Notes: a model not told the origin generated them from the letters alone. A stretch of DNA of 64,000 nucleotides from a phage (GCA_014685065.1 GCA_014685065.1_4092.2), one strand, 5' to 3'; counted from the first letter of the stretch, positions 2,361 to 22,131 are shown. Program-made: numbers and translations.

Positions 2361-2732
2361 ATGAATATAGATTTGAAAGGTGCAACACGAACTGTTATCC
2401 TCATTGGGGAATATGCTATCAAGATTCCAACCTTTAAAAGTTGGAAGCTATTCTTAACAGGGATGATAGCTAACCTCAATGAACGTTCGTGGATGCAGTA
2501 CTCCAATCGTAGTGATAGTAGTATCTGTCCTACGTTGTGGTCATCATGTACTGGACTAGTAACTGTACAGAAACGTTGTAAGCCAGTTCAACATAGGGGT
2601 TTATTTTGGGTGGAGTTGTGTGCTTTAGCATTGAATTCAGAGTTAAGTACTGACTTCTTCTATTCAGATGCGAAGCCAGAAAACTTTGGGTATCTGGGTG
2701 GTAAGTTAGTTAAACTTGATTATGGAGATTAA
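2361..2732 (+). CDS. hypothetical protein
   Basis: internal ATG of tracked ORF 2316..2732 chosen to avoid overlap. Confidence 0.5.
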   Translation: MNIDLKGATRTVILIGEYAIKIPTFKSWKLFLTGMIANLNERSWMQYSNRSDSSICPTLWSSCTGLVTVQKRCKPVQHRGLFWVELCALALNSELSTDFFYSDAKPENFGYLGGKLVKLDYGD

Positions 2733-2733
2733 T

Positions 2734-3003
2734 ATGTACGCACTGTATAATAAAGAAAAGAAACGATTTGCTAAGGTTGAAATTTCGATTGATACATTTG
2801 ATATGTTGGAGTACTGTATTGTAACTGACCTATATGCTAACTTGTATTACGTTCTTGATGACGTATCAGTACTGCAACGATTGCTTGAGAATTCCAAAAG
2901 TCAATGCCAGGGCATCCATGATGGTTCATCTTATGAAACACCTGAGTGTTCCTACGGCTATCTGGACGGGTATGAGATTGTGAAGTTGGGGATCATTGAA
3001 TAA
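2734..3003 (+). CDS. hypothetical protein
   Basis: ATG at 2734 adjacent to previous stop. Confidence 0.5.
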   Translation: MYALYNKEKKRFAKVEISIDTFDMLEYCIVTDLYANLYYVLDDVSVLQRLLENSKSQCQGIHDGSSYETPECSYGYLDGYEIVKLGIIE

Positions 3004-3009
3004 AGAAAA

Positions 3010-3042
3010 GGGTTGACTTCGGTCAGCCCTTTTTGCTATAAT
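3010..3042 (+). terminator. terminator hairpin GGGTTGAC-TTCG-GTCAGCCC + T5 whose arm and tail also spell TTGACT-N18-TATAAT (dual terminator/promoter element, copy 1)
   Basis: read directly; one G-U wobble in stem; UUCG loop. Confidence 0.6.
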
Positions 3043-3070
3043 TATTTCATCAAGACGAGAGGATGAATAC

Positions 3071-3586
3071 ATGACACGCATTAACTTAGTACACGTTAAA
3101 GAACTTGCTGACCAACATCTGATGGCTGAATATCGTGAACTCCCACGTGTATTTGGTGCTGTACAAAAACACGTTCAAGCACGTAAGCGTGTACGTGATT
3201 TCAAAATTAACAGTACTTATCTGTTAGGTTCAGGTCATGTGACATTCTTTTACGACAAGTTGCTGTACTTACAGAAGCGTCATATCGATATTGTTAACGA
3301 ATGTTTGCGTCGTGGTATGAAGATTCAAAACACTGAAGTAAACGACATTAGCGGCTTCCCTGCTGAGTTTTGTAATGACTACGTACCAACGGAGTCAGAG
3401 ATTAAAATGTCTCGTGATCGTTTGATTGAGAAGCTCCAGATGAAGCCTACGTGGTATAAGTTTACTGATGTTGAATGTCCACAGTACGTTAAAGATATGC
3501 AGAACGTAAGTAGTAAGAACGAATCTAGTACTGATATGTTCGACGAAATTGAAGAACAAATCAAAGATGAAATGAATAATTATTAA
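3071..3586 (+). CDS. denV: pyrimidine-dimer DNA glycosylase / endonuclease V
   Basis: N-terminal ~130 aa align with T4 DenV as I recall it ([50 protein letters not shown]); extra acidic C-tail. Confidence 0.85.
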
Positions 3587-3624
3587 AGGAAAGGGTTGAC
3601 TTCGGTTACACAAAGGAACATAAC

Positions 3625-3819
3625 ATGTTATTAGTATATTCAAAGCGTTTCTGGATTTCTTTTATTGTACTATCGCTAATCGGCTTCGGTTTGAGTATAC
3701 TCTTTTCGTGGGATGAATTGGGTACATGGTATTATGAAGTCCCGTGGTACATGAAGATAGCTCCTTGTTATGCGGCATTGTTCGTGTCATTCCTTATTGT
3801 TGTCTTCAGCGAGGATTAG
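3625..3819 (+). CDS. small membrane protein
   Basis: ORF track; hydrophobic. Confidence 0.45.
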   Translation: MLLVYSKRFWISFIVLSLIGFGLSILFSWDELGTWYYEVPWYMKIAPCYAALFVSFLIVVFSED

Positions 3820-3870
3820 TTGATGTAGTATGTGCTACACCAAAGTATTTGGATATTTTAGATATAAACA

Positions 3871-3899
3871 TTGACACCTGTTCTATCTTTCTGTATTAT
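3871..3899 (+). promoter_or_regulatory. sigma70-like promoter TTGACA-N17-TATTAT
   Basis: read directly; precedes 3926 gene. Confidence 0.5.
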
Positions 3900-3925
3900 G
3901 TACATCACCAAATGAGGAATACAAC

Positions 3926-4285
3926 ATGGCATCTTTAAGTGAAATCGCAGAATACAACCCACTAACAATCTCAACAATTCAACGTACAAAAACTTTTTAT
4001 TTCCGTCCTGCTGATGGATGGAAACGTGGAATGAATGGTGACTATCGAGTACTGGAAGATTCACTAATCGAGCGTATCAACTCTGAACTACAGAAGTATG
4101 AAGGTGTTAAAGTTGTGCGTTCAACTTCTCGTTATTTTGAGTACTACATTGAGTCTTCAACTGTAAATGAAAACTCATCATTCTCGGTGGACAACACTGA
4201 TATTCTTCGTAATGCTGTTGGTCTTTTATGCAGGATTGCAGAAGAAATTGGATTAACTATCACCACAATGAGTGAGTTAGAATAA
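3926..4285 (+). CDS. hypothetical protein
   Basis: ORF track; SD GAGGAA. Confidence 0.6.
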   Translation: MASLSEIAEYNPLTISTIQRTKTFYFRPADGWKRGMNGDYRVLEDSLIERINSELQKYEGVKVVRSTSRYFEYYIESSTVNENSSFSVDNTDILRNAVGLLCRIAEEIGLTITTMSELE

Positions 4286-4291
4286 CATAAA

Positions 4292-4324
4292 GGGTTGACT
4301 TCGGTCAGCCCTTTTTGCTATAAT
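4292..4324 (+). terminator. terminator/promoter dual element, copy 2
   Basis: GGGTTGACTTCGGTCAGCCCTTTTTGCTATAAT. Confidence 0.6.
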
Positions 4325-4350
4325 TATTTCATCAACACAAGAGGTAACAA

Positions 4351-4587
4351 ATGAAACTATCTTTTATACGATTAGCTGAATTCTTCGGTACTGATGTAAT
4401 TACTTTACAACAAATTGCAGATAATACTTCATTAAGTACACAAGAAGTACTTGACTTAGATGTAATTCAGTGCGATAATACTTCCATCGATTTCAAAGAA
4501 GGTCTTGTCGAAAAAGATAAGATTAAAGCTAAGATTAATGGTGCTGGGCGGGTTCAGTACTGGAAAGGAGTATTAAGTAATGTTTGA
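4351..4587 (+). CDS. hypothetical protein
   Basis: ORF track; SD GAGG. Confidence 0.5.
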   Translation: MKLSFIRLAEFFGTDVITLQQIADNTSLSTQEVLDLDVIQCDNTSIDFKEGLVEKDKIKAKINGAGRVQYWKGVLSNV

Positions 4588-5698
4588 ACAGTATTATTTA
4601 AATGAAGATGGTGAAAAAGTTTATTTTCATGAAGAACTTGGTATGCGTTTTGAATGGATGAAGCCTGAAGATATAAAAAGGGTTTCAAAAGGACTCACTG
4701 CTAAGGATCATGTTGATGACATAGAAGCAAAATTAAAAAACAAAGATATTGACAATATTACTATTATTGGATTATCAGTTAAATCATCACGTGAGTTTGG
4801 TAAAAACGGAAATAGTAATAACAATTTACTGATTATGTATAATGGGGTATTGTATGATAATTATAAAATAACTGGTTTAAAAACAAAGCTTGAAAAAATA
4901 ACAAACAATAAATTCAAGCCATCATTTACCTATACAGATGAAAATTATTATTACTATGTAACCAAATTGGGTTCTCTTGAGGAAAGAGGATGCTATATAT
5001 ATGAAAATGAACATTTAGACAATGGGATAATGTCATATATTAAATTCACATATTCCGATGGATTTACACAACCACGAAGAATAAATGATATAATTACAAA
5101 AACATCAATGAACGTTAGATATTTTATAACACCTGAAATGCGTGAAACAATTGCTAACACACGCTGTAATGAACTAGGATATACATTAAAAGAAGTTTAC
5201 AAGAAATCAAATGGTCGTTATTATGTAAAATATATATGTGATAAAGGACACGAGTGTAATCAAGACTATTATGCGTTTACTAGTAAACAAGCACAAAAGT
5301 GTGGATGCTGTTCCCAATTAGAAACACACTCATTTGGTCATAATGATTGTAAAGAGTTTTTGAGAGGAATGTTTGTTACTGAAAGAGAGAAAACATTTCC
5401 TGATTTAAAAAATAAATCAAAACTTCCATATGATTTTTATATTCGTGATATTAATACGTTATTTGAATATGATGGTAGTAATCACTTTGAAGAACGTGAA
5501 TCAGGATGGGGAAACGGACTTATGAGGAAAAAACACGATAAAATCAAAACAGAATACGCAATAAAAAATGGATATAACTTCATTCGTATTGCGTATTATG
5601 AAGACCATATTGGAGCATTGAAATCTTTCCTTAAACTCATTGAAGAGAATCCAGGAAAGCAAATCGTGCAGATCTATGGTGAAGTACAAATTATCTAA
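4580..5698 (+). CDS. putative endonuclease with C-terminal Vsr/DUF559-like PD-(D/E)XK domain and Cys/His cluster; very AT-rich
   Basis: motifs PYDFYI..LFEYDGSNHFE..RKKHDKIKTEYAIKNGYNFIRI; CDKGHEC..CGCC; SD GGAAAGGAG. Confidence 0.55.
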   Translation: MFEQYYLNEDGEKVYFHEELGMRFEWMKPEDIKRVSKGLTAKDHVDDIEAKLKNKDIDNITIIGLSVKSSREFGKNGNSNNNLLIMYNGVLYDNYKITGLKTKLEKITNNKFKPSFTYTDENYYYYVTKLGSLEERGCYIYENEHLDNGIMSYIKFTYSDGFTQPRRINDIITKTSMNVRYFITPEMRETIANTRCNELGYTLKEVYKKSNGRYYVKYICDKGHECNQDYYAFTSKQAQKCGCCSQLETHSFGHNDCKEFLRGMFVTEREKTFPDLKNKSKLPYDFYIRDINTLFEYDGSNHFEERESGWGNGLMRKKHDKIKTEYAIKNGYNFIRIAYYEDHIGALKSFLKLIEENPGKQIVQIYGEVQII

Positions 5699-5705
5699 AA
5701 CAAAA

Positions 5706-5738
5706 GGGTTGACTTCGGTCAGCCCTTTTTGCTATAAT
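5706..5738 (+). terminator. terminator/promoter dual element, copy 3
   Basis: GGGTTGACTTCGGTCAGCCCTTTTTGCTATAAT. Confidence 0.6.
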
Positions 5739-5766
5739 CATTTCATCAACTGAAGAGGGTAAAGAA

Positions 5767-6537
5767 ATGACCAGAGAAGCACGCAGCATTCAAATTCAGA
5801 AAAACTTCAACTCCATGATGGTTGCTCTTGAGTGTTTGCTCGATGATAGCAGTACTGTAAAAAGTATGGTTGTCAGTGGTGCTCCTGGTGTTGGTAAGAC
5901 TTACACCTTGTCCCAACGTCTCCAGAAGGCTCATGACGCAGCAGAATGGAACGTAGCTACTATCAGTGGTAAGATGACTACACTGGCTCTGTACGAAGTT
6001 CTGTACAAGAATCGTCACAGCACCAACGTGTTAGTACTGGATGATATGGACAGCATCTTTGATTCTGAAGACGGTATGAACCTGCTCAAAGCTGTTTTGG
6101 ATAGTGGTAAGCGTACTGTATCTTATATGACTAGCTCTAAGTACTTGAGCACTAACGGCATTCCTAATAGCTTTGATTTTAATGGTCGCATCGTATTCAT
6201 TACTAACAAAGATTTAGCGTTAGATGCTAAAGCTAAAACTAAAATGTCTGCTCATTATGCTGCTCTTATGTCTCGTTCTGTGTACGTGGATTTACAGATT
6301 CAGACTAAAAGTGATATCATGATTCATATTGAAAATGTAATGACTAAGACTAATATTCTTGCATCTAAAGGTGTTAACAGTAACGGTAGTAAAGCAATTC
6401 TGAATTGGATGTTGAAGCACGAAGATTCTCTTCGTTCACCTTCACTGCGTATGCCACTGTTGATTTCGGCAGTATATAACAACAACCCATACGATTGGGA
6501 AGAACAGTGCGAAAACTTGTTCCTTGAAAAAATTTAA
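5767..6537 (+). CDS. P-loop NTPase (AAA-like ATPase)
   Basis: Walker A GAPGVGKT, Walker B VLVLDDMD. Confidence 0.7.
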   Translation: MTREARSIQIQKNFNSMMVALECLLDDSSTVKSMVVSGAPGVGKTYTLSQRLQKAHDAAEWNVATISGKMTTLALYEVLYKNRHSTNVLVLDDMDSIFDSEDGMNLLKAVLDSGKRTVSYMTSSKYLSTNGIPNSFDFNGRIVFITNKDLALDAKAKTKMSAHYAALMSRSVYVDLQIQTKSDIMIHIENVMTKTNILASKGVNSNGSKAILNWMLKHEDSLRSPSLRMPLLISAVYNNNPYDWEEQCENLFLEKI

Positions 6538-6602
6538 TTCAATATTGACAGTACTAACAATGTGTAGTACTATAACAAAAGTTTAATCACTGGAGACACC
6601 CA

Positions 6603-6944
6603 ATGCGTGAGTTTTTTGAATCTAATATAATGCTTGGTATTACACTGATATACATGTTTGTATTCTTGTTTTATCATTCAATTGTAATTAGTCTTTGGTA
6701 TTTTAAAAGGAAAGTTGTTTTTAAATTGTATTCGTATGATAATGTATTCTTAGTTGTATATAGCATTATACAAGGTGGGTTTATTTTATTTGGTGTGATG
6801 ACATATGTGATTTACATGTTACAAATTGATAACACACCACACATTACACAATATGTTGTGTTTTCAGGACTAATCGTCTGGTTATTGGTGTGTACTATGT
6901 ACTTTATTATTAAAGCTCGTAATAACTTTAAATGGGGATTCTAA
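6603..6944 (+). CDS. small membrane protein paralog
   Basis: ORF track; near-duplicate of 6944..7282. Confidence 0.55.
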   Translation: MREFFESNIMLGITLIYMFVFLFYHSIVISLWYFKRKVVFKLYSYDNVFLVVYSIIQGGFILFGVMTYVIYMLQIDNTPHITQYVVFSGLIVWLLVCTMYFIIKARNNFKWGF

Positions 6945-7282
6945 TGTTAGAATTTTTTAAATCAGATACAATGATTAGTATTACTTTGATTTATCTGTTT
7001 GGTTTTTTCTTTTATCATGCACTAGTTGTAGTACTATGGTATTTTAAAAAGAAAATTGTTTTTAAACTGTATCCAGTGAGGAATTCATCACTAGTTCTTT
7101 ACACACTTGTTCAAGGTTTGTTTGCAATTGTTGGTCTTATGGCACACTTAATTTATTGTGCTAATCCTCACTTGAACTCAATCTCACAATATATTGTATT
7201 CTTTGGGTTGTTCATTTGGTTAGTTGTATACTTAATCCATCTCATTATTCATGGTAGAGATAAAATTCGCGGAGACTTCTAA
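6944..7282 (+). CDS. small membrane protein paralog
   Basis: TAATG overlap; WYFKKKIVFKLY motif shared with 6603 gene. Confidence 0.55.
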   Translation: MLEFFKSDTMISITLIYLFGFFFYHALVVVLWYFKKKIVFKLYPVRNSSLVLYTLVQGLFAIVGLMAHLIYCANPHLNSISQYIVFFGLFIWLVVYLIHLIIHGRDKIRGDF

Positions 7283-7629
7283 TGTTTGAAGCTTATCTTG
7301 AGTTTTTAAGGAGTAGTCCAGTTGCACATTCACTTGCAGGGATTATTCTAACAACTTATGTATCATTTTGGGTAGTTATGTTTCTAGGATGGTATTTTAA
7401 ACGACAATTCTATAAACGTAATGGTGAAGATTTTATGAATTCTGTCATTAATCAATCGTTGTTTGCATCAACATTGATTGCATGTATTGTAGCAACACTC
7501 ACAGGAAAGGTACTACCAGCTTTTTCCGCAGTTTACGGCACACTTGGGATGATATGTTTAACTTTTATATTGACCATTAAAATTTGTTGTGTTATGATTG
7601 AACTTCGAAATAAGATACCGGAGGAATGA
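7282..7629 (+). CDS. small membrane protein paralog
   Basis: TAATG overlap; hydrophobic; WYFKRQ motif. Confidence 0.5.
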   Translation: MFEAYLEFLRSSPVAHSLAGIILTTYVSFWVVMFLGWYFKRQFYKRNGEDFMNSVINQSLFASTLIACIVATLTGKVLPAFSAVYGTLGMICLTFILTIKICCVMIELRNKIPEE

Positions 7630-7964
7630 TGGAGTACTTTATTGATTTACTGCCGTGGTATATGAAAGTTAGTACTTTGTACTATATTATTAGTGCTGGA
7701 TTCTACTTTCTGATGTGGTTCTTCAAACGACCAATTTCAGTATTCATCGCTGATAACATGCTGCAATTAAAATTACACGCATGGTTTGGTATGGCGATGA
7801 TTATGCCTATTATTCACTACTCAATGATTAGTAGAGGTTTCCGTTCTAATGGTGAACCAATTGTATTAGTATTCTATTGGGGTTCAACTATTGCATATGT
7901 AAGTTTGTTGTTGTTCCCAGTCGTTCATAAATTACGTGCTAAAGTTCCTGATGCGAGGTACTAA
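7626..7964 (+). CDS. small membrane protein paralog
   Basis: ATGATG overlap; hydrophobic; WFFKRP motif. Confidence 0.5.
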   Translation: MMEYFIDLLPWYMKVSTLYYIISAGFYFLMWFFKRPISVFIADNMLQLKLHAWFGMAMIMPIIHYSMISRGFRSNGEPIVLVFYWGSTIAYVSLLLFPVVHKLRAKVPDARY

Positions 7965-8278
7965 TGGATATCGTAACATTGATTTACACGTTGTATTCAT
8001 TCTATTTCATTATGTGTTGGGTTGGATTTTTATTTGTACTGAAGATGTTTGATTATGTTGAAAAACAGATAAAAGAATTTTGTATTCCTTTTATTGGGTC
8101 AACCATTATTAGTATTACTTGTTTGTATTATTTGGTATGTGATCCACCTGATAATACAGCAATGATTGACTTGATGTTACTACCAACAACTGTTACTTTT
8201 TTATGTAGTCTGATGCCGCCGATTAGCCGTGGACTAACAGAATTTAGACGCAATCAAAAGCGTAAACGAGGGATGTAA
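7964..8278 (+). CDS. small membrane protein paralog
   Basis: TAATG overlap; hydrophobic. Confidence 0.5.
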   Translation: MDIVTLIYTLYSFYFIMCWVGFLFVLKMFDYVEKQIKEFCIPFIGSTIISITCLYYLVCDPPDNTAMIDLMLLPTTVTFLCSLMPPISRGLTEFRRNQKRKRGM

Positions 8279-8646
8279 TGGAAATTGCTCTTATTATCTT
8301 AACTGCTATGCTGTTTATTAGTACTGTGGTTATAATTGGTAAATTCTTTTGTGTATCATTTTTAGAAACGGTATACGATGAAATTGCTGATGATTATGAA
8401 TTACAAGCCGGATTTTTCATTACGTATTGGCTTAGTTTATTTTGTCTAGTCATTGCTTGGATTTTACATATCTTTAAATGGGGTATGGTAGACGGTGATC
8501 CTATTATGGCAATTATTGTTCTAGTGTTTGGTATCCTTGGTGGTGCAGTGCATAATCTAATGGTTATCTGGCAAACTGTTCAATATGTTTTGGTTCCCTA
8601 TTTCGAAAAGATGCACAGTACAATTAAAAAACGTAAACGAGGTTAG
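8278..8646 (+). CDS. small membrane protein paralog
   Basis: TAATG overlap; hydrophobic. Confidence 0.5.
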   Translation: MEIALIILTAMLFISTVVIIGKFFCVSFLETVYDEIADDYELQAGFFITYWLSLFCLVIAWILHIFKWGMVDGDPIMAIIVLVFGILGGAVHNLMVIWQTVQYVLVPYFEKMHSTIKKRKRG

Positions 8647-8647
8647 T

Positions 8648-9010
8648 ATGAACGGGATAGAATTATCTTTCGTTGGTCAATTACTAGTAATGGCGTATAC
8701 ATTTATCTTCTCACTGAATGCATTCGTGTGCATTGGGAAGTACTTCCATAAGCGACCATTATCAAATATATATGATGTAATCCAAAAGAGATATAGTCCA
8801 GCATATACTGTGTTGGGTACAGTATTCAATTTTGGTTTTATTGTATTAATAATTGGACTGTTCACATCCTCTTTGAATACAATAACCTTCGGTCTTATGA
8901 TATGTTCATTGGTATTAGCCGTAATTATATGTTGTTTAGTACTGCACCTTGTGGTACTATTGTATATAAAGATCTCTGAAATCCACCAACGTTTGGGTAT
9001 GAGGAAATAA
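8648..9010 (+). CDS. small membrane protein paralog
   Basis: ATG at 8648 after previous stop; hydrophobic. Confidence 0.5.
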   Translation: MNGIELSFVGQLLVMAYTFIFSLNAFVCIGKYFHKRPLSNIYDVIQKRYSPAYTVLGTVFNFGFIVLIIGLFTSSLNTITFGLMICSLVLAVIICCLVLHLVVLLYIKISEIHQRLGMRK

Positions 9011-9011
9011 T

Positions 9012-9383
9012 ATGAGTTACCGTGAGATATTTTCCATTATTTCAATTATTATGTTCAGTACTGGAACACTGGTATGGTTATTATACTTCTTCTGTATTAA
9101 TCCAGTGTATAATATGTTATGTAATATTAAATCAAGTGCCGGATATATCACTTTTATGGTCTTTATGGGATATTATTGTCTAAGCATTTTAGGTGTTGTT
9201 TTGGTTGTTATATTTGATGTGGGACCAAATAGTGATGGTATGGAAATACATGAATTAATAACCATGTTTGGATGTATGATACCAACAGCACTACTGTTTG
9301 TAGCTACTGGTAGTGGATTGATAAAATTATATAATTATTTAAAATCCATTCATAATTCCATTCATAATAAGCGTATGTCATAA
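9012..9383 (+). CDS. small membrane protein paralog
   Basis: ORF track; hydrophobic. Confidence 0.5.
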   Translation: MSYREIFSIISIIMFSTGTLVWLLYFFCINPVYNMLCNIKSSAGYITFMVFMGYYCLSILGVVLVVIFDVGPNSDGMEIHELITMFGCMIPTALLFVATGSGLIKLYNYLKSIHNSIHNKRMS

Positions 9384-19740: not shown

Positions 19741-19804
19741 ATTCCCTCCTTTATTTGTTATACTATATTTAATACAAATAAGAAAGCCAGTACAGTGTAC
19801 TGGC
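19741..19804 (-). promoter_or_regulatory. array intergenic terminator/promoter cassette
   Basis: hairpin 19786-19804 + conserved block. Confidence 0.5.
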
Positions 19805-19810
19805 ATTATG

Positions 19811-20920
19811 TTATTTTGGTAAATCAATTTTAGTAAAGACTGCAACATCCTCGATTGCACCTGGAATGGCGTAATACGATCCAGTACTATACACATCTCC
19901 ATTTTTGGTTAATATCGATGTCAAACCATCACTAAAAAGAACATCCCTAATCTCACTAACTTCAACGGGTAATTGTAAATTGGTAGCACTATATATAGCA
20001 CCAGTTTGAGAATTGTTTAATCCCAAACCACGGTTCGCCCCAACACCCTTCTGATATGTACTAGTAATTACCATTTGTGTAGCAGTATTTAAGGCAGGTG
20101 AATTCGTCATAAACAATGGAGAACTATTAGGCAAAGTACTTACAGGAACTGCACGGAATGTAGTCGTACCTGAACTAAGAAAGTTTGGAGTTTGACCACA
20201 TACGAAATATGATGTACCATTATAGTAATTTAATGCATTACCACCAATGGCTGCATCGATTACACCAGAACTACGCAATCCCCAAGTGTTAATTTGTGTT
20301 TGGTTCCCCGTACCATGCTGCCCACTACTATTCCATCCAGAACTATATAGCTTATTATCTAATGTAAGATACATACTATCATTCGCATTGGTCATTACTT
20401 TACGAACGTTCGTAGCACATTGAGTTAATGTGTAAATTGATGAGGAACCAATACCCAAAGAACCACGATATCCATTATCTCCTGCACCATAGAGTACTGA
20501 ATTAGTGCTAAGTACAAATATTAAACCATTTGTACATACAATATTAGCAATTTCACTTACTGGTATAGCATTGGTAAACCAATTAGTTCTTTCAACTAAT
20601 ACAGTACTGTAAGAAGTAGTTGTAGAAGATGAGAACCAGTACGTTTGACCTGATGTCCATATCGTATTATCATTTTTAATAATAACAAGTGTACGATCAC
20701 CCACGAAAAAATTAGAAACATCTGCACTTACTAATGTCCACGAAGACACCGTGTTGGTATTACCATTTCCAGATTCACCACCTTGATTTCTACCTATGTA
20801 ATATAAATCATGTGAATCAGTCAATAAGAATTGGCCTTGGGTAGAAGCACCAACTTTAATTATTTTTTTAGGACCAGGGACAATATTTCCATACCTAATC
20901 ATTCTTCCAAAAGGTAACAT
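19811..20920 (-). CDS. RCC1-like beta-propeller protein with MLPFGRM leader
   Basis: ATG at 20918-20920 after AGGAGGG. Confidence 0.75.
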   Translation of the reverse strand: MLPFGRMIRYGNIVPGPKKIIKVGASTQGQFLLTDSHDLYYIGRNQGGESGNGNTNTVSSWTLVSADVSNFFVGDRTLVIIKNDNTIWTSGQTYWFSSSTTTSYSTVLVERTNWFTNAIPVSEIANIVCTNGLIFVLSTNSVLYGAGDNGYRGSLGIGSSSIYTLTQCATNVRKVMTNANDSMYLTLDNKLYSSGWNSSGQHGTGNQTQINTWGLRSSGVIDAAIGGNALNYYNGTSYFVCGQTPNFLSSGTTTFRAVPVSTLPNSSPLFMTNSPALNTATQMVITSTYQKGVGANRGLGLNNSQTGAIYSATNLQLPVEVSEIRDVLFSDGLTSILTKNGDVYSTGSYYAIPGAIEDVAVFTKIDLPK

Positions 20921-20928
20921 ATTCCCTC

Positions 20929-22131
20929 CTATTGTTGCCATAACTGCGTTGGCATTAATGTTAGTGTAGTAATACTATAAGTACCATTAGGTAATCTACC
21001 ACCATTTCCATTCCAGCCACCACATGCATATAATTTATAATCTTTAGTAATTATTATGGTTCTGCTCCAATCTTTAGATGCCATAAGAACATTGTCATAA
21101 CCACCACTTATTGCACTAAGATTAAAAATATTCCAAGTTCTAACTAATGTATTAGTTCCATTACCTTCTTGACCATATGAGTTAGCACCACTACTTCTAA
21201 CATATGGTGCGTATTGTGCCATAGGTGCACCAATTGATGCATTTCCCATATTACTTGGACAAATAAAAGTACTGTACTTACTTACATCAACCGTGACCGA
21301 TGTGTTCCTAATTGGTGTTAGCTGATTTACCGATGTAGTCGTACCATTACCAGCTTGTCCAGTACTGTTAGCCCCGCTATAATATACAGACCCACCAGTA
21401 GTAAACCACCAAGTAACATCGTATGTAGTACTAATATGTTCTACATTACTAATCACGAATTTGTTCAAATATACAACAGAACTACCACCACATCCACTTT
21501 CACCAAAGTTATCCTTACCACAAAACCATGCATCTTTATTTGATTTGATATAGTGCGTTCCTTGTAATGAACATGCCATATGTGTAACTTCACCCATATT
21601 AGTCATAACTGTGAGTGTAGGGATGGAATTTTTATTACCAGAGCCACATTCACCATTGGTATTTCTTCCACACGCAATTACTCTACCATCGGTTAATAAT
21701 ATTCTAGTACTTTCACCTATATATACACTCTTGATCATATTAGCCATAACACCTATTTTATTAAATGCAACAGTAACATCAGTCCATGTTGTCAAATAAC
21801 CATTAACAGGTGTTGCATCTCCATAATCAGAAAATGCACCAACCGACCCAGTGTAGTATATTTTATTATCCAAATCAATCATCAATGAACCTTGAACACC
21901 AAGCCAAAAGGCTGCACAGTTCCTTGCAAGTACTGTAAATGACGAAACTGCTGCTGAATTCCCAAGACCAAATTGATAAAAGTTATTACTACCATAACCA
22001 TATAAAGTATTAGTTGGGTTATGGAGATACATACAGTTTGTATAATGTTGTTGTAAAACATCTGAGAACTCTACAGGTTCTGGACCTGGTGCAATATTTG
22101 CGTACTTAACCATTCTTCCAAAAGGTAACAT
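20929..22131 (-). CDS. RCC1-like beta-propeller protein with MLPFGRM leader
   Basis: ORF track; motifs GANSTGQAGNG, GANSYGQEGNG. Confidence 0.75.
   Translation of the reverse strand: MLPFGRMVKYANIAPGPEPVEFSDVLQQHYTNCMYLHNPTNTLYGYGSNNFYQFGLGNSAAVSSFTVLARNCAAFWLGVQGSLMIDLDNKIYYTGSVGAFSDYGDATPVNGYLTTWTDVTVAFNKIGVMANMIKSVYIGESTRILLTDGRVIACGRNTNGECGSGNKNSIPTLTVMTNMGEVTHMACSLQGTHYIKSNKDAWFCGKDNFGESGCGGSSVVYLNKFVISNVEHISTTYDVTWWFTTGGSVYYSGANSTGQAGNGTTTSVNQLTPIRNTSVTVDVSKYSTFICPSNMGNASIGAPMAQYAPYVRSSGANSYGQEGNGTNTLVRTWNIFNLSAISGGYDNVLMASKDWSRTIIITKDYKLYACGGWNGNGGRLPNGTYSITTLTLMPTQLWQQ

What the first reader, a model, noticed from the sequence alone, without database searches (positions are those of the whole stretch)
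4580..5698. Very AT-rich endonuclease gene bracketed by two terminator/promoter elements: candidate selfish insertion
The 372-aa product ends in a Vsr/DUF559-like PD-(D/E)XK signature (PYDFYI...LFEYDGSNHFE...DKIKTEYAIKNGYNFIRI) and has a Cys/His cluster (CDKGHEC...CGCC). Its codon usage is visibly more A/T-biased (Lys/Asn/Ile/Tyr-rich) than its neighbours, and it sits between dual-element copies at 4292 and 5706. Homing endonucleases in T-even phages have the same footprint.
Basis: partly seen in the sequence, partly recalled or inferred. Interest (0 to 1): 0.5.

Follow-up and report, generated by a model that had tools for sequence, protein, structure and literature searches.

The report
Free-standing homing endonuclease in jumbo phage
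This gene in a Rak2-like jumbo coliphage very probably encodes a selfish "homing" DNA-cutting enzyme of an already described type; related phages carry other nuclease genes, broken ones or nothing at the same spot, so it is a clear but ordinary example.

Summary
ORF 4580-5698 (372 aa) is real, carries the quoted motifs, and lies between exact copies of a 33-nt hairpin/promoter element at 4292 and 5706; a third copy is at 3010. The window is an Asteriusvirus, 98.8% identical to phage G17.

Among relatives the slot before a conserved ATPase gene is empty to within a few bases (SD-15_S21), lacks the whole cassette (SP27, UE-S1), holds at least five other nuclease-like genes, or holds decayed ones.

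The gene is much more diverged than its flanks (dS 1.21 against 0.16-0.56) yet under purifying selection. In JP4 it sits in a 1.8-kb near-identical block.

Two corrections. The unit between the elements also contains a 78-aa ORF whose stop overlaps the nuclease start. The AT bias is modest.

Verdict: a free-standing homing endonuclease gene in a nuclease hot spot flanked by PeSL-type elements. Cleavage and target are untested. New member of a known kind.

The parts
3007..3054 (+). Terminator/promoter (PeSL-type) element, copy 1, upstream of denV. It is not part of the cassette but belongs to the same repeat family.
   Evidence: Exact 33-nt core at 3010; hairpin -20.4 kcal/mol; conserved at this position in all relatives examined.
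4289..4336 (+). Terminator/promoter element, copy 2: hairpin 4292-4311 with a UUCG loop, U-tract 4312-4316, -35 TTGACT 4295-4300, extended -10 TGCTATAAT ending at 4324. It is the inferred promoter of the ORF78-nuclease operon and the left crossover site of the SP27-type deletion.
   Evidence: SP27 keeps a single hybrid copy where the window has copies 2 and 3.
4351..4587 (+). ORF78, a conserved 78-aa protein of unknown function (phrog_34150). Its last codons supply the ribosome-binding site of the nuclease gene, and its stop overlaps that gene's ATG.
   Evidence: It is present upstream of every nuclease variant at this site in the GenBank relatives and in metagenomic locus L016, present alone in SD-15_S21, and absent in SP27 and UE-S1.
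4564..4570 (+). AAAGGAG ribosome-binding site, 9 nt upstream of the nuclease ATG and lying inside the ORF78 coding sequence.
   Evidence: Read directly from the sequence. The same bases are present in the empty site of SD-15_S21, so the site predates or is independent of the insert.
4580..5698 (+). Nuclease gene (372 aa): a free-standing homing-endonuclease candidate.
4580..4678 (+). N-terminal 33 aa (MFEQYYLNEDGEKVYFHEELGMRFEWMKPEDI), modelled as beta strands. It is shared nearly unchanged with the otherwise different PBECO4 nuclease and with several 35%-identical metagenomic homologues.
   Evidence: (DNA homology with PBECO4 runs to 4677).
4679..5125 (+). Two modules (about aa 40-106 and 120-175) that align with CapR/DUF4379-type zinc-finger repeats of homologues but have lost the cysteines. 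They are presumed DNA-binding modules.
   Evidence: Alignments; helix-plus-strand pattern and pLDDT 84-95.
5132..5317 (+). Treble-clef zinc module (Cys220, His224 or Cys226, Cys241, Cys244).
   Evidence: Weak CapR hit on aa 188-243 (E 0.24). C220, C241 and C244 are at least 90% conserved. Homologues carry PF14311, PF05265 and PF21817.
5327..5599 (+). Vsr-like (EDxHD-type) nuclease core. His254 sits at the position of Vsr Glu25. Asp285, Asp298 (the x position), His302 and Asp320 follow, with Lys323.
5600..5695 (+). Subfamily-specific C-terminal tail (helix plus beta hairpin, ...KQIVQIYGEVQII). It is almost invariant among Asteriusvirus-type paralogues; its role is unknown.
   Evidence: Most remote domain hits end at profile position 96-107. 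DNA identity to other nuclease genes over this stretch is 82-87%.
5703..5750 (+). Terminator/promoter element, copy 3. It is the inferred terminator of the operon, the promoter of the ATPase gene, the right junction of every nuclease variant, and the right crossover site of the SP27-type deletion.
5767..6537 (+). Conserved flanking gene, a 256-aa P-loop/AAA ATPase (121Q gp223). Its first ~590 bp travel with the nuclease gene. It contains small patches (5755-5764 just upstream, and 5908-5928) that distinguish nuclease-372 genomes plus SP27 from all the others.
4549..6356 (+). Block that is nearly identical between the window and phage JP4 (2 mismatches in 1,808 bp), bounded by much more divergent DNA on both sides. 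It looks like a co-conversion tract.
   Evidence: 18 mismatches in 4283-4548, 2 in 4549-6356, and about 60 in 6357-6650.

Best explanation
ORF 4580-5698 is a free-standing homing endonuclease gene. Its product combines a short N-terminal beta element, three CapR/DUF4379-type DNA-binding modules (two have lost their zinc ligands, one keeps them) and a C-terminal Vsr-like (EDxHD-type) PD-(D/E)XK nuclease with a subfamily-specific tail. It has no promoter of its own. It is inferred to be transcribed with ORF78 from the sigma70-type promoter inside the element at 4292-4324, translated from a ribosome-binding site that lies within the end of ORF78, and terminated by the hairpin at 5706-5725. By analogy with I-Bth0305I and the T-even Seg, Mob and Hef enzymes, in a mixed infection it would cut a nuclease-less relative at or near the ORF78/ATPase interval. 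Recombinational repair would then copy the gene and adjacent flank into the cut genome. Independently of this, the ~48-bp repeats flanking the ORF78+nuclease cassette let ordinary homologous recombination delete or transplant the whole cassette, as PeSLs do in T4-like phages. Shown here: the fold, the architecture, the insertion polymorphism with its junctions, the discordant divergence and the purifying selection. Inferred: transcription and translation signals, DNA cleavage, the target, and homing.

For: Mobility. SD-15_S21 has an empty site...AAGTAA|AAAAAGGGTTGAC, where the window has the ORF. SP27 and UE-S1 lack the cassette and keep one hybrid element. At least five other nuclease-like genes occupy the same slot; slurp01's and A4's start at the same ATG position as this one. 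E9.1 carries a split copy and WPEC5 a fragmented one. Between window and EcMJ, dS is 1.21 for the nuclease, against 0.18 (ORF78), 0.16 (denV) and 0.56 (ATPase). The gene is 72% identical to that of a distant phage whose ATPase is only 58% identical. JP4 shares a near-identical block, 4549-6356. dN/dS is 0.12-0.27 in all three protein regions. No intron or other RNA family was found, and no defence-system match.
Against: No cleavage or homing data exist for this protein or any close relative. HMMER and HH-suite searches do not link the domain to Vsr or I-Bth0305I; the link rests on a predicted structure and on motif positions. The family-wide Glu of the SKGE motif, which corresponds to Vsr Glu25, is His254 in this protein and its three closest homologues. 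Activity could therefore be altered. SP27 lacks the gene yet has the same ATPase allele as the window. That shows loss by element-to-element recombination, and means the first 590 bp of the ATPase gene cannot alone distinguish cut from uncut alleles. All the nuclease variants share the same junctions. Cassette exchange by plain homologous recombination would produce that pattern without any targeted cleavage. The compositional deviation is modest.
Confidence: 0.72

Rival explanations
1. The nuclease is passive cargo. The presence/absence pattern is produced only by homologous recombination between the repeated terminator/promoter (PeSL-type) elements and other shared flanks, as described for ORFan cassettes in T4-like phages. 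No targeted DNA break is involved.
For: SP27 and UE-S1 lack exactly the interval between two element copies and keep one hybrid copy. All nuclease variants share the same left and right junctions. The element matches the nt-1/KVP40 PeSL description A3-4G3-loop-C3T3-4. Recombination at PeSLs has been shown experimentally in RB49 and phi1 (PMC2839356).
Against: The SD-15_S21 empty site and the 121Q and slurp01 replacements have their left breakpoint at the nuclease ATG (4575-4582). That is 240 bp away from the nearest element copy. The cargo at this slot is a nuclease-like gene in every occupied genome examined; most occupants match PHROG endonuclease families, and BF17's two ORFs match nothing. 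This is expected for homing genes, not for random ORFans. The gene is kept under purifying selection.
Confidence: 0.15
2. The protein is a domesticated nuclease or DNA-binding protein that benefits the phage. Possible roles are exclusion of competing phages, attack on a satellite or on host DNA, or transcriptional control, as with CapR or Odn in the ICP1/PLE system. On this view it is not a purely selfish element.
For: dN/dS is 0.12-0.27 over the whole length. The gene is expressed as part of an early sigma70 operon (inferred). There are precedents for HEG-derived domains co-opted in phage-satellite conflicts (PMC10448857). His replaces the first catalytic Glu.
Against: Only 3 phage records carry this allele at 99% identity or more, and close relatives do without any nuclease at the site. 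Relatives show decay: split and fragmented copies. There is no PADLOC or NCBIfam match. Marker exclusion is in any case a by-product of homing.
Confidence: 0.1
3. The gene is an inactive relic: an ORF that is still intact but no longer encodes a working nuclease.
For: The His254-for-Glu substitution. Two of the three DNA-binding modules have lost their zinc ligands. Pfam has no hit for the protein above threshold.
Against: Asp285, Asp298, His302, Asp320 and Lys323 are conserved. There is purifying selection in every region. The ORF is 372 aa, intact, and 99.7-100% identical in G17, Sharanji and JP4.
Confidence: 0.03

Closest known systems
[quoted passage not shown] 2025, PMC12350094)
   Same: Same architecture: several ~60-aa CapR/DUF4379/DUF723-like modules followed by a ~100-aa C-terminal Vsr-like nuclease. 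Both are largely unannotated and very numerous (21,142 representatives here; 'thousands of hits' in the paper).
   Different: The published examples are encoded inside group I or group II introns of phage genes. This one is free-standing in an intergenic slot. Two of its three modules have lost their zinc ligands, it has an extra conserved C-terminal tail, and His replaces the first Glu.
I-Bth0305I, prototype of the EDxHD homing endonuclease family (PDB 3R3P; Taylor et al. 2011, PMC3239194)
   Different: I-Bth0305I is encoded in a group I intron in recA and uses NUMOD/HTH modules, not zinc-finger modules. No significant sequence-profile match was found. Cleavage has been demonstrated for I-Bth0305I and not for this protein.
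Hef, SegA-G and MobA-E: free-standing homing endonucleases of T-even phages. Hef is listed as a Vsr-like family member in PMC3239194; the rest rests on my own knowledge of the T4 literature.
   Same: An intergenic, promoter-sharing nuclease gene between conserved genes. It is present or absent among close relatives, and different nuclease genes replace one another at the same site.
   Different: The phage lineage is different (Rak2-like jumbo phage). Seg enzymes are GIY-YIG and Mob enzymes are HNH. No target is known here.
T5orf172 homing endonucleases with CapR/DUF723/DUF4397 zinc-finger repeats in ICP1 and other phages (Barth et al. 2023, PMC10448857)
   Same: Zinc-finger DNA-binding modules arranged as beads on a string, shuffling of modules and domains between nuclease genes, and clustering of different nuclease genes at one locus.
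   Different: The catalytic domain here is Vsr-like, not T5orf172.
PeSLs, composite promoter-early/stem-loop cassettes of T4-like phages (Arbiol et al. 2010, PMC2839356; Comeau et al. 2014, PMC4122927)
   Same: A sigma70-type promoter is combined with a GC-stem terminator hairpin and repeated in intergenic spaces of a plastic region. One indel is bounded by two copies with a crossover inside the repeat. The stem fits the nt-1/KVP40 consensus A3-4G3-loop-C3T3-4, and the identical hairpin occurs in ~253-kb Vibrio phages.
   Different: These are found in Rak2-like jumbo phages. Only three copies were seen in 64 kb. The -35 hexamer lies inside the hairpin. Promoter and terminator activity and mini-circles have not been tested.
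E. coli Vsr mismatch endonuclease (PDB 1CW0)
   Different: 7% identity and no profile match. Vsr is a single-domain repair nickase with a zinc site inside the nuclease domain and no separate DNA-binding modules.

Membership tests
EDxHD / Vsr-like homing endonucleases | The catalytic domain has the Vsr-type PD-(D/E)XK fold. | tested here: met
EDxHD / Vsr-like homing endonucleases | The composite motif E...D...x...H...D is conserved (Vsr E25, D51, H64, H69, D97; I-Bth0305I E170, D196, N208, H213, D222; PMC3239194). | tested here: inconclusive
   D285, D298 (the x position), H302 and D320 are invariant in close homologues. In remote homologues D285, H302 and D320 are invariant and D298 is at least 90% conserved. 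The family-wide Glu (SKGE) is His254 in this protein and its three closest homologues. The residue correspondence was assigned from order, spacing and secondary structure, not from a superposition I could inspect.
EDxHD / Vsr-like homing endonucleases | Detectable sequence similarity to Vsr or I-Bth0305I. | tested here: not met
   phmmer and two profile searches of the PDB found neither protein. hhalign against Vsr gave probability 0.1. The only hint is AbaSI, a Vsr-like domain, at E 1.2.
EDxHD / Vsr-like homing endonucleases | Site-specific double-strand cleavage of the allele that lacks the gene, followed by homing. | not testable with these tools
   This needs purified protein and phage crosses.
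CapR-like + EDxHD/Vsr-like HEG outgroup (PMC12350094) | Three to five ~60-aa CapR/DUF4379/DUF723-like modules N-terminal to the nuclease. | tested here: met
   One zinc module at aa 185-245 (CapR E 0.24). Two further modules align with zinc modules of homologues but lack the cysteines. Homologues score strongly for PF14311, PF05265 and PF21817. Full-length Foldseek matches to such viral proteins.
CapR-like + EDxHD/Vsr-like HEG outgroup (PMC12350094) | A C-terminal ~100-aa domain distantly related to EDxHD/Vsr. | tested here: met
Free-standing homing endonuclease gene (defined by behaviour) | Presence/absence polymorphism among close relatives, with the boundaries at the gene ends, in an intergenic position. 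| tested here: met
   SD-15_S21 has 66 nt between ORF78 and the ATPase gene, against 1,186 nt in G17 and JP4.
Free-standing homing endonuclease gene (defined by behaviour) | An evolutionary history different from that of the flanking genes, and co-conversion of the adjacent flank. | tested here: met
   dS is 1.21 against 0.16-0.56 for the flanks, and the gene is closer to that of a distant phage than to that of a near relative. JP4 shares a near-identical block, 4549-6356.
Free-standing homing endonuclease gene (defined by behaviour) | Not embedded in an intron or intein. | tested here: met
   No Rfam intron family at E<=1 in 2500-7000. The gene lies between complete ORFs.
PeSL (promoter-early stem-loop) elements | A composite of a sigma70-like promoter and a stable stem-loop terminator, repeated in intergenic regions. 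| tested here: met
   This is shown by sequence only; promoter and terminator activity were not tested.
PeSL (promoter-early stem-loop) elements | Indels between related genomes are bounded by the elements, with the crossover inside the repeat. | tested here: met
   In SP27 and UE-S1 the interval between copies 2 and 3 is missing and one hybrid copy remains.
PeSL (promoter-early stem-loop) elements | Formation of excised mini-circles. | not testable with these tools
   This needs inverse PCR on infected cells or virions.
Pfam DUF559 (PF04480) | A score above the Pfam gathering threshold. | tested here: not met
   No hit for this protein. Five of 17 close homologues and 3 of 60 remote ones match only below threshold; the best E-values are 7.8e-4 and 7.2e-4.
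HNH endonuclease (the label on EcMJ_562, on RefSeq relatives and on phrog_559) | A beta-beta-alpha-metal HNH catalytic motif. | tested here: not met
   The catalytic domain is a PD-(D/E)XK Vsr-like fold, and there is no HNH Pfam hit. The label looks like an annotation carry-over.

The most novel reading that the evidence does not exclude
The nuclease, and possibly the other nucleases that share its junctions, may recognise the boundary between the end of ORF78 and the PeSL-type hairpin itself. The terminator/promoter cassette would then be a landing pad, not just a neighbour. That would tie homing-endonuclease activity to PeSL-associated genome plasticity. [quoted passage not shown] It could help explain why an identical hairpin cassette is shared by Rak2-like coliphages and KVP40-like vibriophages.
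Probability: 0.08. Interest if true: 0.7.

Novelty: new member of a known kind. Interest (0 to 1): 0.3.

Why it matters
The protein family, the free-standing lifestyle and the flanking regulatory cassettes have all been described before, so the finding itself is ordinary. Three things are useful.

First, it corrects annotation. The gene is 'hypothetical protein' in G17 and 'HNH endonuclease' in relatives, but it is a Vsr-like homing endonuclease.

Second, sequenced isolates at this one site show every stage of a homing-gene life cycle: empty, occupied by at least six different genes, split, fragmented, and deleted as a cassette. That makes Asteriusvirus phages a convenient system for testing this large, uncharacterised nuclease family.

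Third, PeSL-type terminator/promoter cassettes occur outside the T4-like phages, with a hairpin identical to one in Vibrio phages.

Tried and rejected
Sequence-only assignment of the nuclease domain failed:
- Pfam gave only a weak CapR hit for the protein.
- phmmer and two profile searches of the PDB found no Vsr-family structure.
- hhalign against Vsr gave probability 0.1.

Defence-system and NCBIfam libraries gave nothing.

An intron-encoded origin was rejected: no Rfam intron hit.

My impression that the PBECO4 and 121Q C-terminal domain looks like T5orf172/GIY-YIG could not be confirmed. Pfam gave no hit even at E 5, so I call it only the 'phrog_681 endonuclease' type.

I looked for the cleavage target through polymorphism. 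Two small patches (5755-5764 and 5908-5928) distinguish nuclease-372 genomes from the others. SP27, which lacks the gene, has the same allele. The patches are therefore candidates at most.

The high conservation of the 3' 160 nt looked as if it might be a DNA-level recombination module. Identity of 82-87% is no more than strong protein conservation would give, so I dropped this idea.

I did not use the second structure job or the two remaining large protein searches on ORF78 or on the PBECO4-type nuclease, because these lie outside the finding.

Full report
**Source and observation.** The window is from an Asteriusvirus, a Rak2-like jumbo coliphage. Bases 3900-6600 are 98.8% identical over their full length to Escherichia phages vB_EcoM_G17 and Sharanji. 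The 33-nt string GGGTTGACTTCGGTCAGCCCTTTTTGCTATAAT occurs exactly at 4292 and 5706 and also at 3010; none is expected by chance.

**The repeated element.** Each copy folds into an 11-13-bp hairpin with a UUCG loop and a U-tract, at -17.6 to -20.4 kcal/mol and z about -5. Each contains TTGACT, an 18-nt spacer and TGcTATAAT. The G17 annotators mark all three copies as terminators. The simple terminator scan used here missed them.

**Two details to correct.** A 78-aa ORF (4351..4587) lies between the left element and the nuclease gene. Its stop overlaps the nuclease ATG (ATGTTTGA), and an AAAGGAG ribosome-binding site sits 9 nt upstream, inside ORF78. The AT bias is also modest. GC is 0.292, the 10th lowest of 114 ORFs (mean 0.356, sd 0.045), and GC3 is 0.204, the third lowest.

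**What the protein is.**
- Pfam gives nothing above threshold for it. PHROGs place it in families labelled homing or intron-encoded endonuclease.
- An AlphaFold2 model built on 22 homologues has mean pLDDT 84.
- Sequence methods cannot show this link. Only a few homologues give sub-threshold DUF559 hits.
- Asp285, Asp298, His302, Asp320 and Lys323 are invariant among close homologues. In remote homologues all are invariant except Asp298, which is at least 90% conserved. By order, spacing and secondary structure four of them correspond to Vsr D51, H64, H69 and D97, and to I-Bth0305I D196, N208, H213 and D222 (PMC3239194).
- The family-wide Glu of an SKGE motif, equivalent to Vsr Glu25, is His254 in this protein and its three nearest homologues.

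**Upstream domains.** Upstream of the nuclease lies a treble-clef zinc module (Cys220, His224 or Cys226, Cys241, Cys244). Homologues carry up to five such modules, which score as DUF4379, DUF723 or CapR. Two further segments of this protein (about aa 40-106 and 120-175) align with such modules but have lost the cysteines.

**Size of the family.** A profile of the nuclease domain finds 21,142 representative proteins at E<=1e-3. Among the best 159, the domain is C-terminal in 154, and 133 have zinc-ribbon motifs upstream. Foldseek against viral structures gives 207 matches at E<=1e-3, many over the full length. Their names include 'Homing endonuclease', 'Group I intron protein' and 'VSR endonuclease'. 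This is the architecture Merk et al. (2025) describe as a large unrecognised outgroup of EDxHD/Vsr homing endonucleases (PMC12350094). The zinc modules are the DNA-binding 'beads' that Barth et al. (2023) describe for T5orf172 homing endonucleases (PMC10448857).

**Is it an insertion?** I compared the locus in 14 GenBank relatives and three metagenomic contigs. The flanks are conserved: the denV gene, a 119-aa ORF, ORF78 and a 256-aa ATPase gene. The interval between ORF78 and the ATPase gene varies as follows.

| Phage(s) | ORF78-to-ATPase interval | Content |
|---|---|---|
| SD-15_S21 | 66 nt | nothing |
| G17, JP4 (and the window) | 1,186 nt | this 372-aa gene |
| EcMJ | 1,184 nt | 371-aa orthologue, 60% identical |
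| ELP-22, SHEFM2K | 1,493 nt (ELP-22) | 474-aa gene sharing only the nuclease domain |
| PBECO4 | 1,562 nt | 379-aa phrog_681-type endonuclease gene plus a small ORF |
| 121Q | 1,940 nt | 487-aa phrog_681-type endonuclease gene plus a small ORF |
| slurp01, A4 | 1,953 and 1,764 nt | 628-aa and 565-aa genes |
| BF17 | 2,532 nt | two unrelated ORFs |
| E9.1 | 2,030 nt | the slurp01 gene split in two |
| WPEC5 | 1,567 nt | frame-shifted fragments |

**Junctions.**
- In SD-15_S21 the junction reads ...GGAGTTTTAAGTAA|AAAAAGGGTTGAC, where the window has ...GGAGTATTAAGTAA|TGTTTGAAC...ATTATCTAA|AACAAAAGGGTTGAC. The missing segment matches the ORF to within a few bases.
- The slurp01 and A4 genes start at the same ATG position, and every variant ends just before the right-hand hairpin.
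- SP27 and UE-S1 lack ORF78 as well. The 119-aa ORF is followed by a single hybrid element and then the ATPase gene, which indicates a crossover inside the ~48-bp repeat.

**Evolutionary signals.** Between the window and EcMJ, dS is 1.21 for the nuclease gene, against 0.18 for ORF78, 0.16 for denV and 0.56 for the ATPase gene. The nuclease is 72% identical to that of a distant metagenomic phage whose ATPase is only 58% identical. The gene's history therefore differs from that of its flanks. dN/dS is 0.12-0.27 in the N-terminal, middle and nuclease regions, so the protein is maintained.

Window and JP4 differ at 18 positions in 4283-4548. They differ at 2 in 4549-6356 and at about 60 in 6357-6650. 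This is a 1.8-kb shared block covering the gene, the right-hand element and the first ~590 bp of the ATPase gene, as a co-conversion tract would look.

SP27 has the same ATPase allele as the nuclease-carrying genomes. It most likely lost the cassette by recombination between the two elements.

No intron-like RNA was found, and there is no defence-system match.

**Most likely mechanism.** This is a free-standing homing endonuclease gene that rides on the ORF78 transcription unit. It is inferred to be transcribed from the early sigma70-type promoter in the left element, translated from a ribosome-binding site inside ORF78, and terminated by the right hairpin. In mixed infections it would cut nuclease-less relatives near this interval and be copied in by repair, as shown for I-Bth0305I and for the T-even Seg, Mob and Hef enzymes. 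The cleavage, the target and the homing are inferences.

A second, independent process acts on the same DNA. The flanking repeats behave like PeSLs, the promoter/stem-loop cassettes that mediate cassette shuffling in T4-like phages (PMC2839356, PMC4122927). The stem matches the nt-1/KVP40 consensus A3-4G3-loop-C3T3-4. The identical hairpin GGGTTGACTTCGGTCAGCCC plus T5 occurs in ~253-kb Vibrio phages.

**Rival readings.**
- Passive cargo moved only by PeSL recombination. This is weakened by breakpoints at the ATG, 240 bp from the nearest element, and by the fact that the slot holds nuclease-like genes in every occupied genome examined.
- A domesticated, beneficial nuclease. This is weakened by its rarity, its dispensability and the decay seen in relatives.
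- An inactive relic. This is weakened by purifying selection and conserved catalytic residues.

**Verdict.** It is a new member of a known kind. Interest is low to moderate. The value lies in re-annotation, in a natural series of occupancy states at one site that could serve to test this large uncharacterised nuclease family, and in finding PeSL-type cassettes outside the T4-like phages.

Noticed in passing
window 3007-3054, 4289-4336, 5703-5750; L020 2499-2530 (Vibrio phage D482): The 48-nt terminator/promoter element occurs in 72 phage records (144 places). Besides the Escherichia, Salmonella, Klebsiella, Erwinia, Serratia, Pectobacterium and Yersinia phage records, these include 19 Vibrio and 3 Aeromonas phage records. 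In Vibrio phage D482 the hairpin GGGTTGACTTCGGTCAGCCC plus T5, and even the upstream AAACAAAA, are identical to window copy 3. Either a regulatory cassette has moved between distant phage groups, or the convergence is strikingly exact.
   Followed up: partly
L003 2598-3011 (JP4), L006 1127-1540 (EcMJ); corresponds to window ~3004-3010: JP4 and EcMJ carry a 137-aa gene annotated 'HNH endonuclease' between the 121Q gp216 homologue and element copy 1/denV. The window, G17 and SP27 lack it. This is a second variable nuclease slot about 1.3 kb upstream of the one studied.
   Followed up: no
L003 4298-4936 (JP4): JP4 has an extra 203-aa ORF, with no PHROG hit, inserted between the 119-aa ORF and ORF78. 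The homology break falls inside the hairpin of element copy 2.
   Followed up: partly
window 5600-5695 (aa 341-372): The last ~35 aa (…HIGALKSFLKLIEENPGKQIVQIYGEVQII) are almost invariant among nuclease paralogues that are only 25-35% identical elsewhere. They are missing from most of the 21,142 remote family members. The function of this tail is unknown; dimerisation or a phage partner are possibilities.
   Followed up: partly
window 4580-4678 (aa 1-33): The first 33 aa are shared almost unchanged with the PBECO4 nuclease, which has a different, non-Vsr C-terminal domain, and with 35%-identical metagenomic homologues. This suggests that nuclease domains were swapped behind a fixed N-terminus at this locus.
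   Followed up: partly
window 4351-4587: ORF78 (phrog_34150) precedes the nuclease gene in every occupied GenBank relative and in metagenomic locus L016, persists alone in SD-15_S21, and is deleted with the nuclease in SP27 and UE-S1. The stretch ITLQQIADNTSLSTQEV looks like a helix-turn-helix to my eye, but this was not tested. It could be a regulator or simply the resident gene.
   Followed up: no
L016 3552-4529 (metagenomic relative, minus strand): In the contig that encodes the 72%-identical orthologue, a further 325-aa gene with a faint DUF4379 hit lies on the opposite strand between the nuclease and the ATPase gene. It is another nuclease-like occupant of the same interval.
   Followed up: no
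window 6603-9383: A head-to-tail array of eight small (104-141 aa) ORFs immediately downstream of the ATPase gene, corresponding to 121Q gp224-232. Their translations look hydrophobic and alike to my eye; paralogy was not tested. The number of ORFs annotated here differs between relatives.
   Followed up: no
window 9425-10087: This 220-aa ORF (phrog_34359, unknown function) has the lowest GC of the window (0.255) and the highest Lys/Asn/Tyr/Ile/Phe content (0.475). It is more extreme than the nuclease gene that was flagged for AT-richness.
   Followed up: partly
window 10545-22131 (minus strand): A run of nine ORFs, mostly ~380-430 aa (range 245-433). Relatives annotate the first as 'regulator of chromosome condensation'.
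   Followed up: no
window ~22180-46500: A dense series of near-consensus sigma70 promoters. Many share the spacer AGTACTGTATAAT, and most are followed by TACATCAA. This looks like the early-gene region and uses a promoter type different from the three hairpin-containing elements.
   Followed up: no
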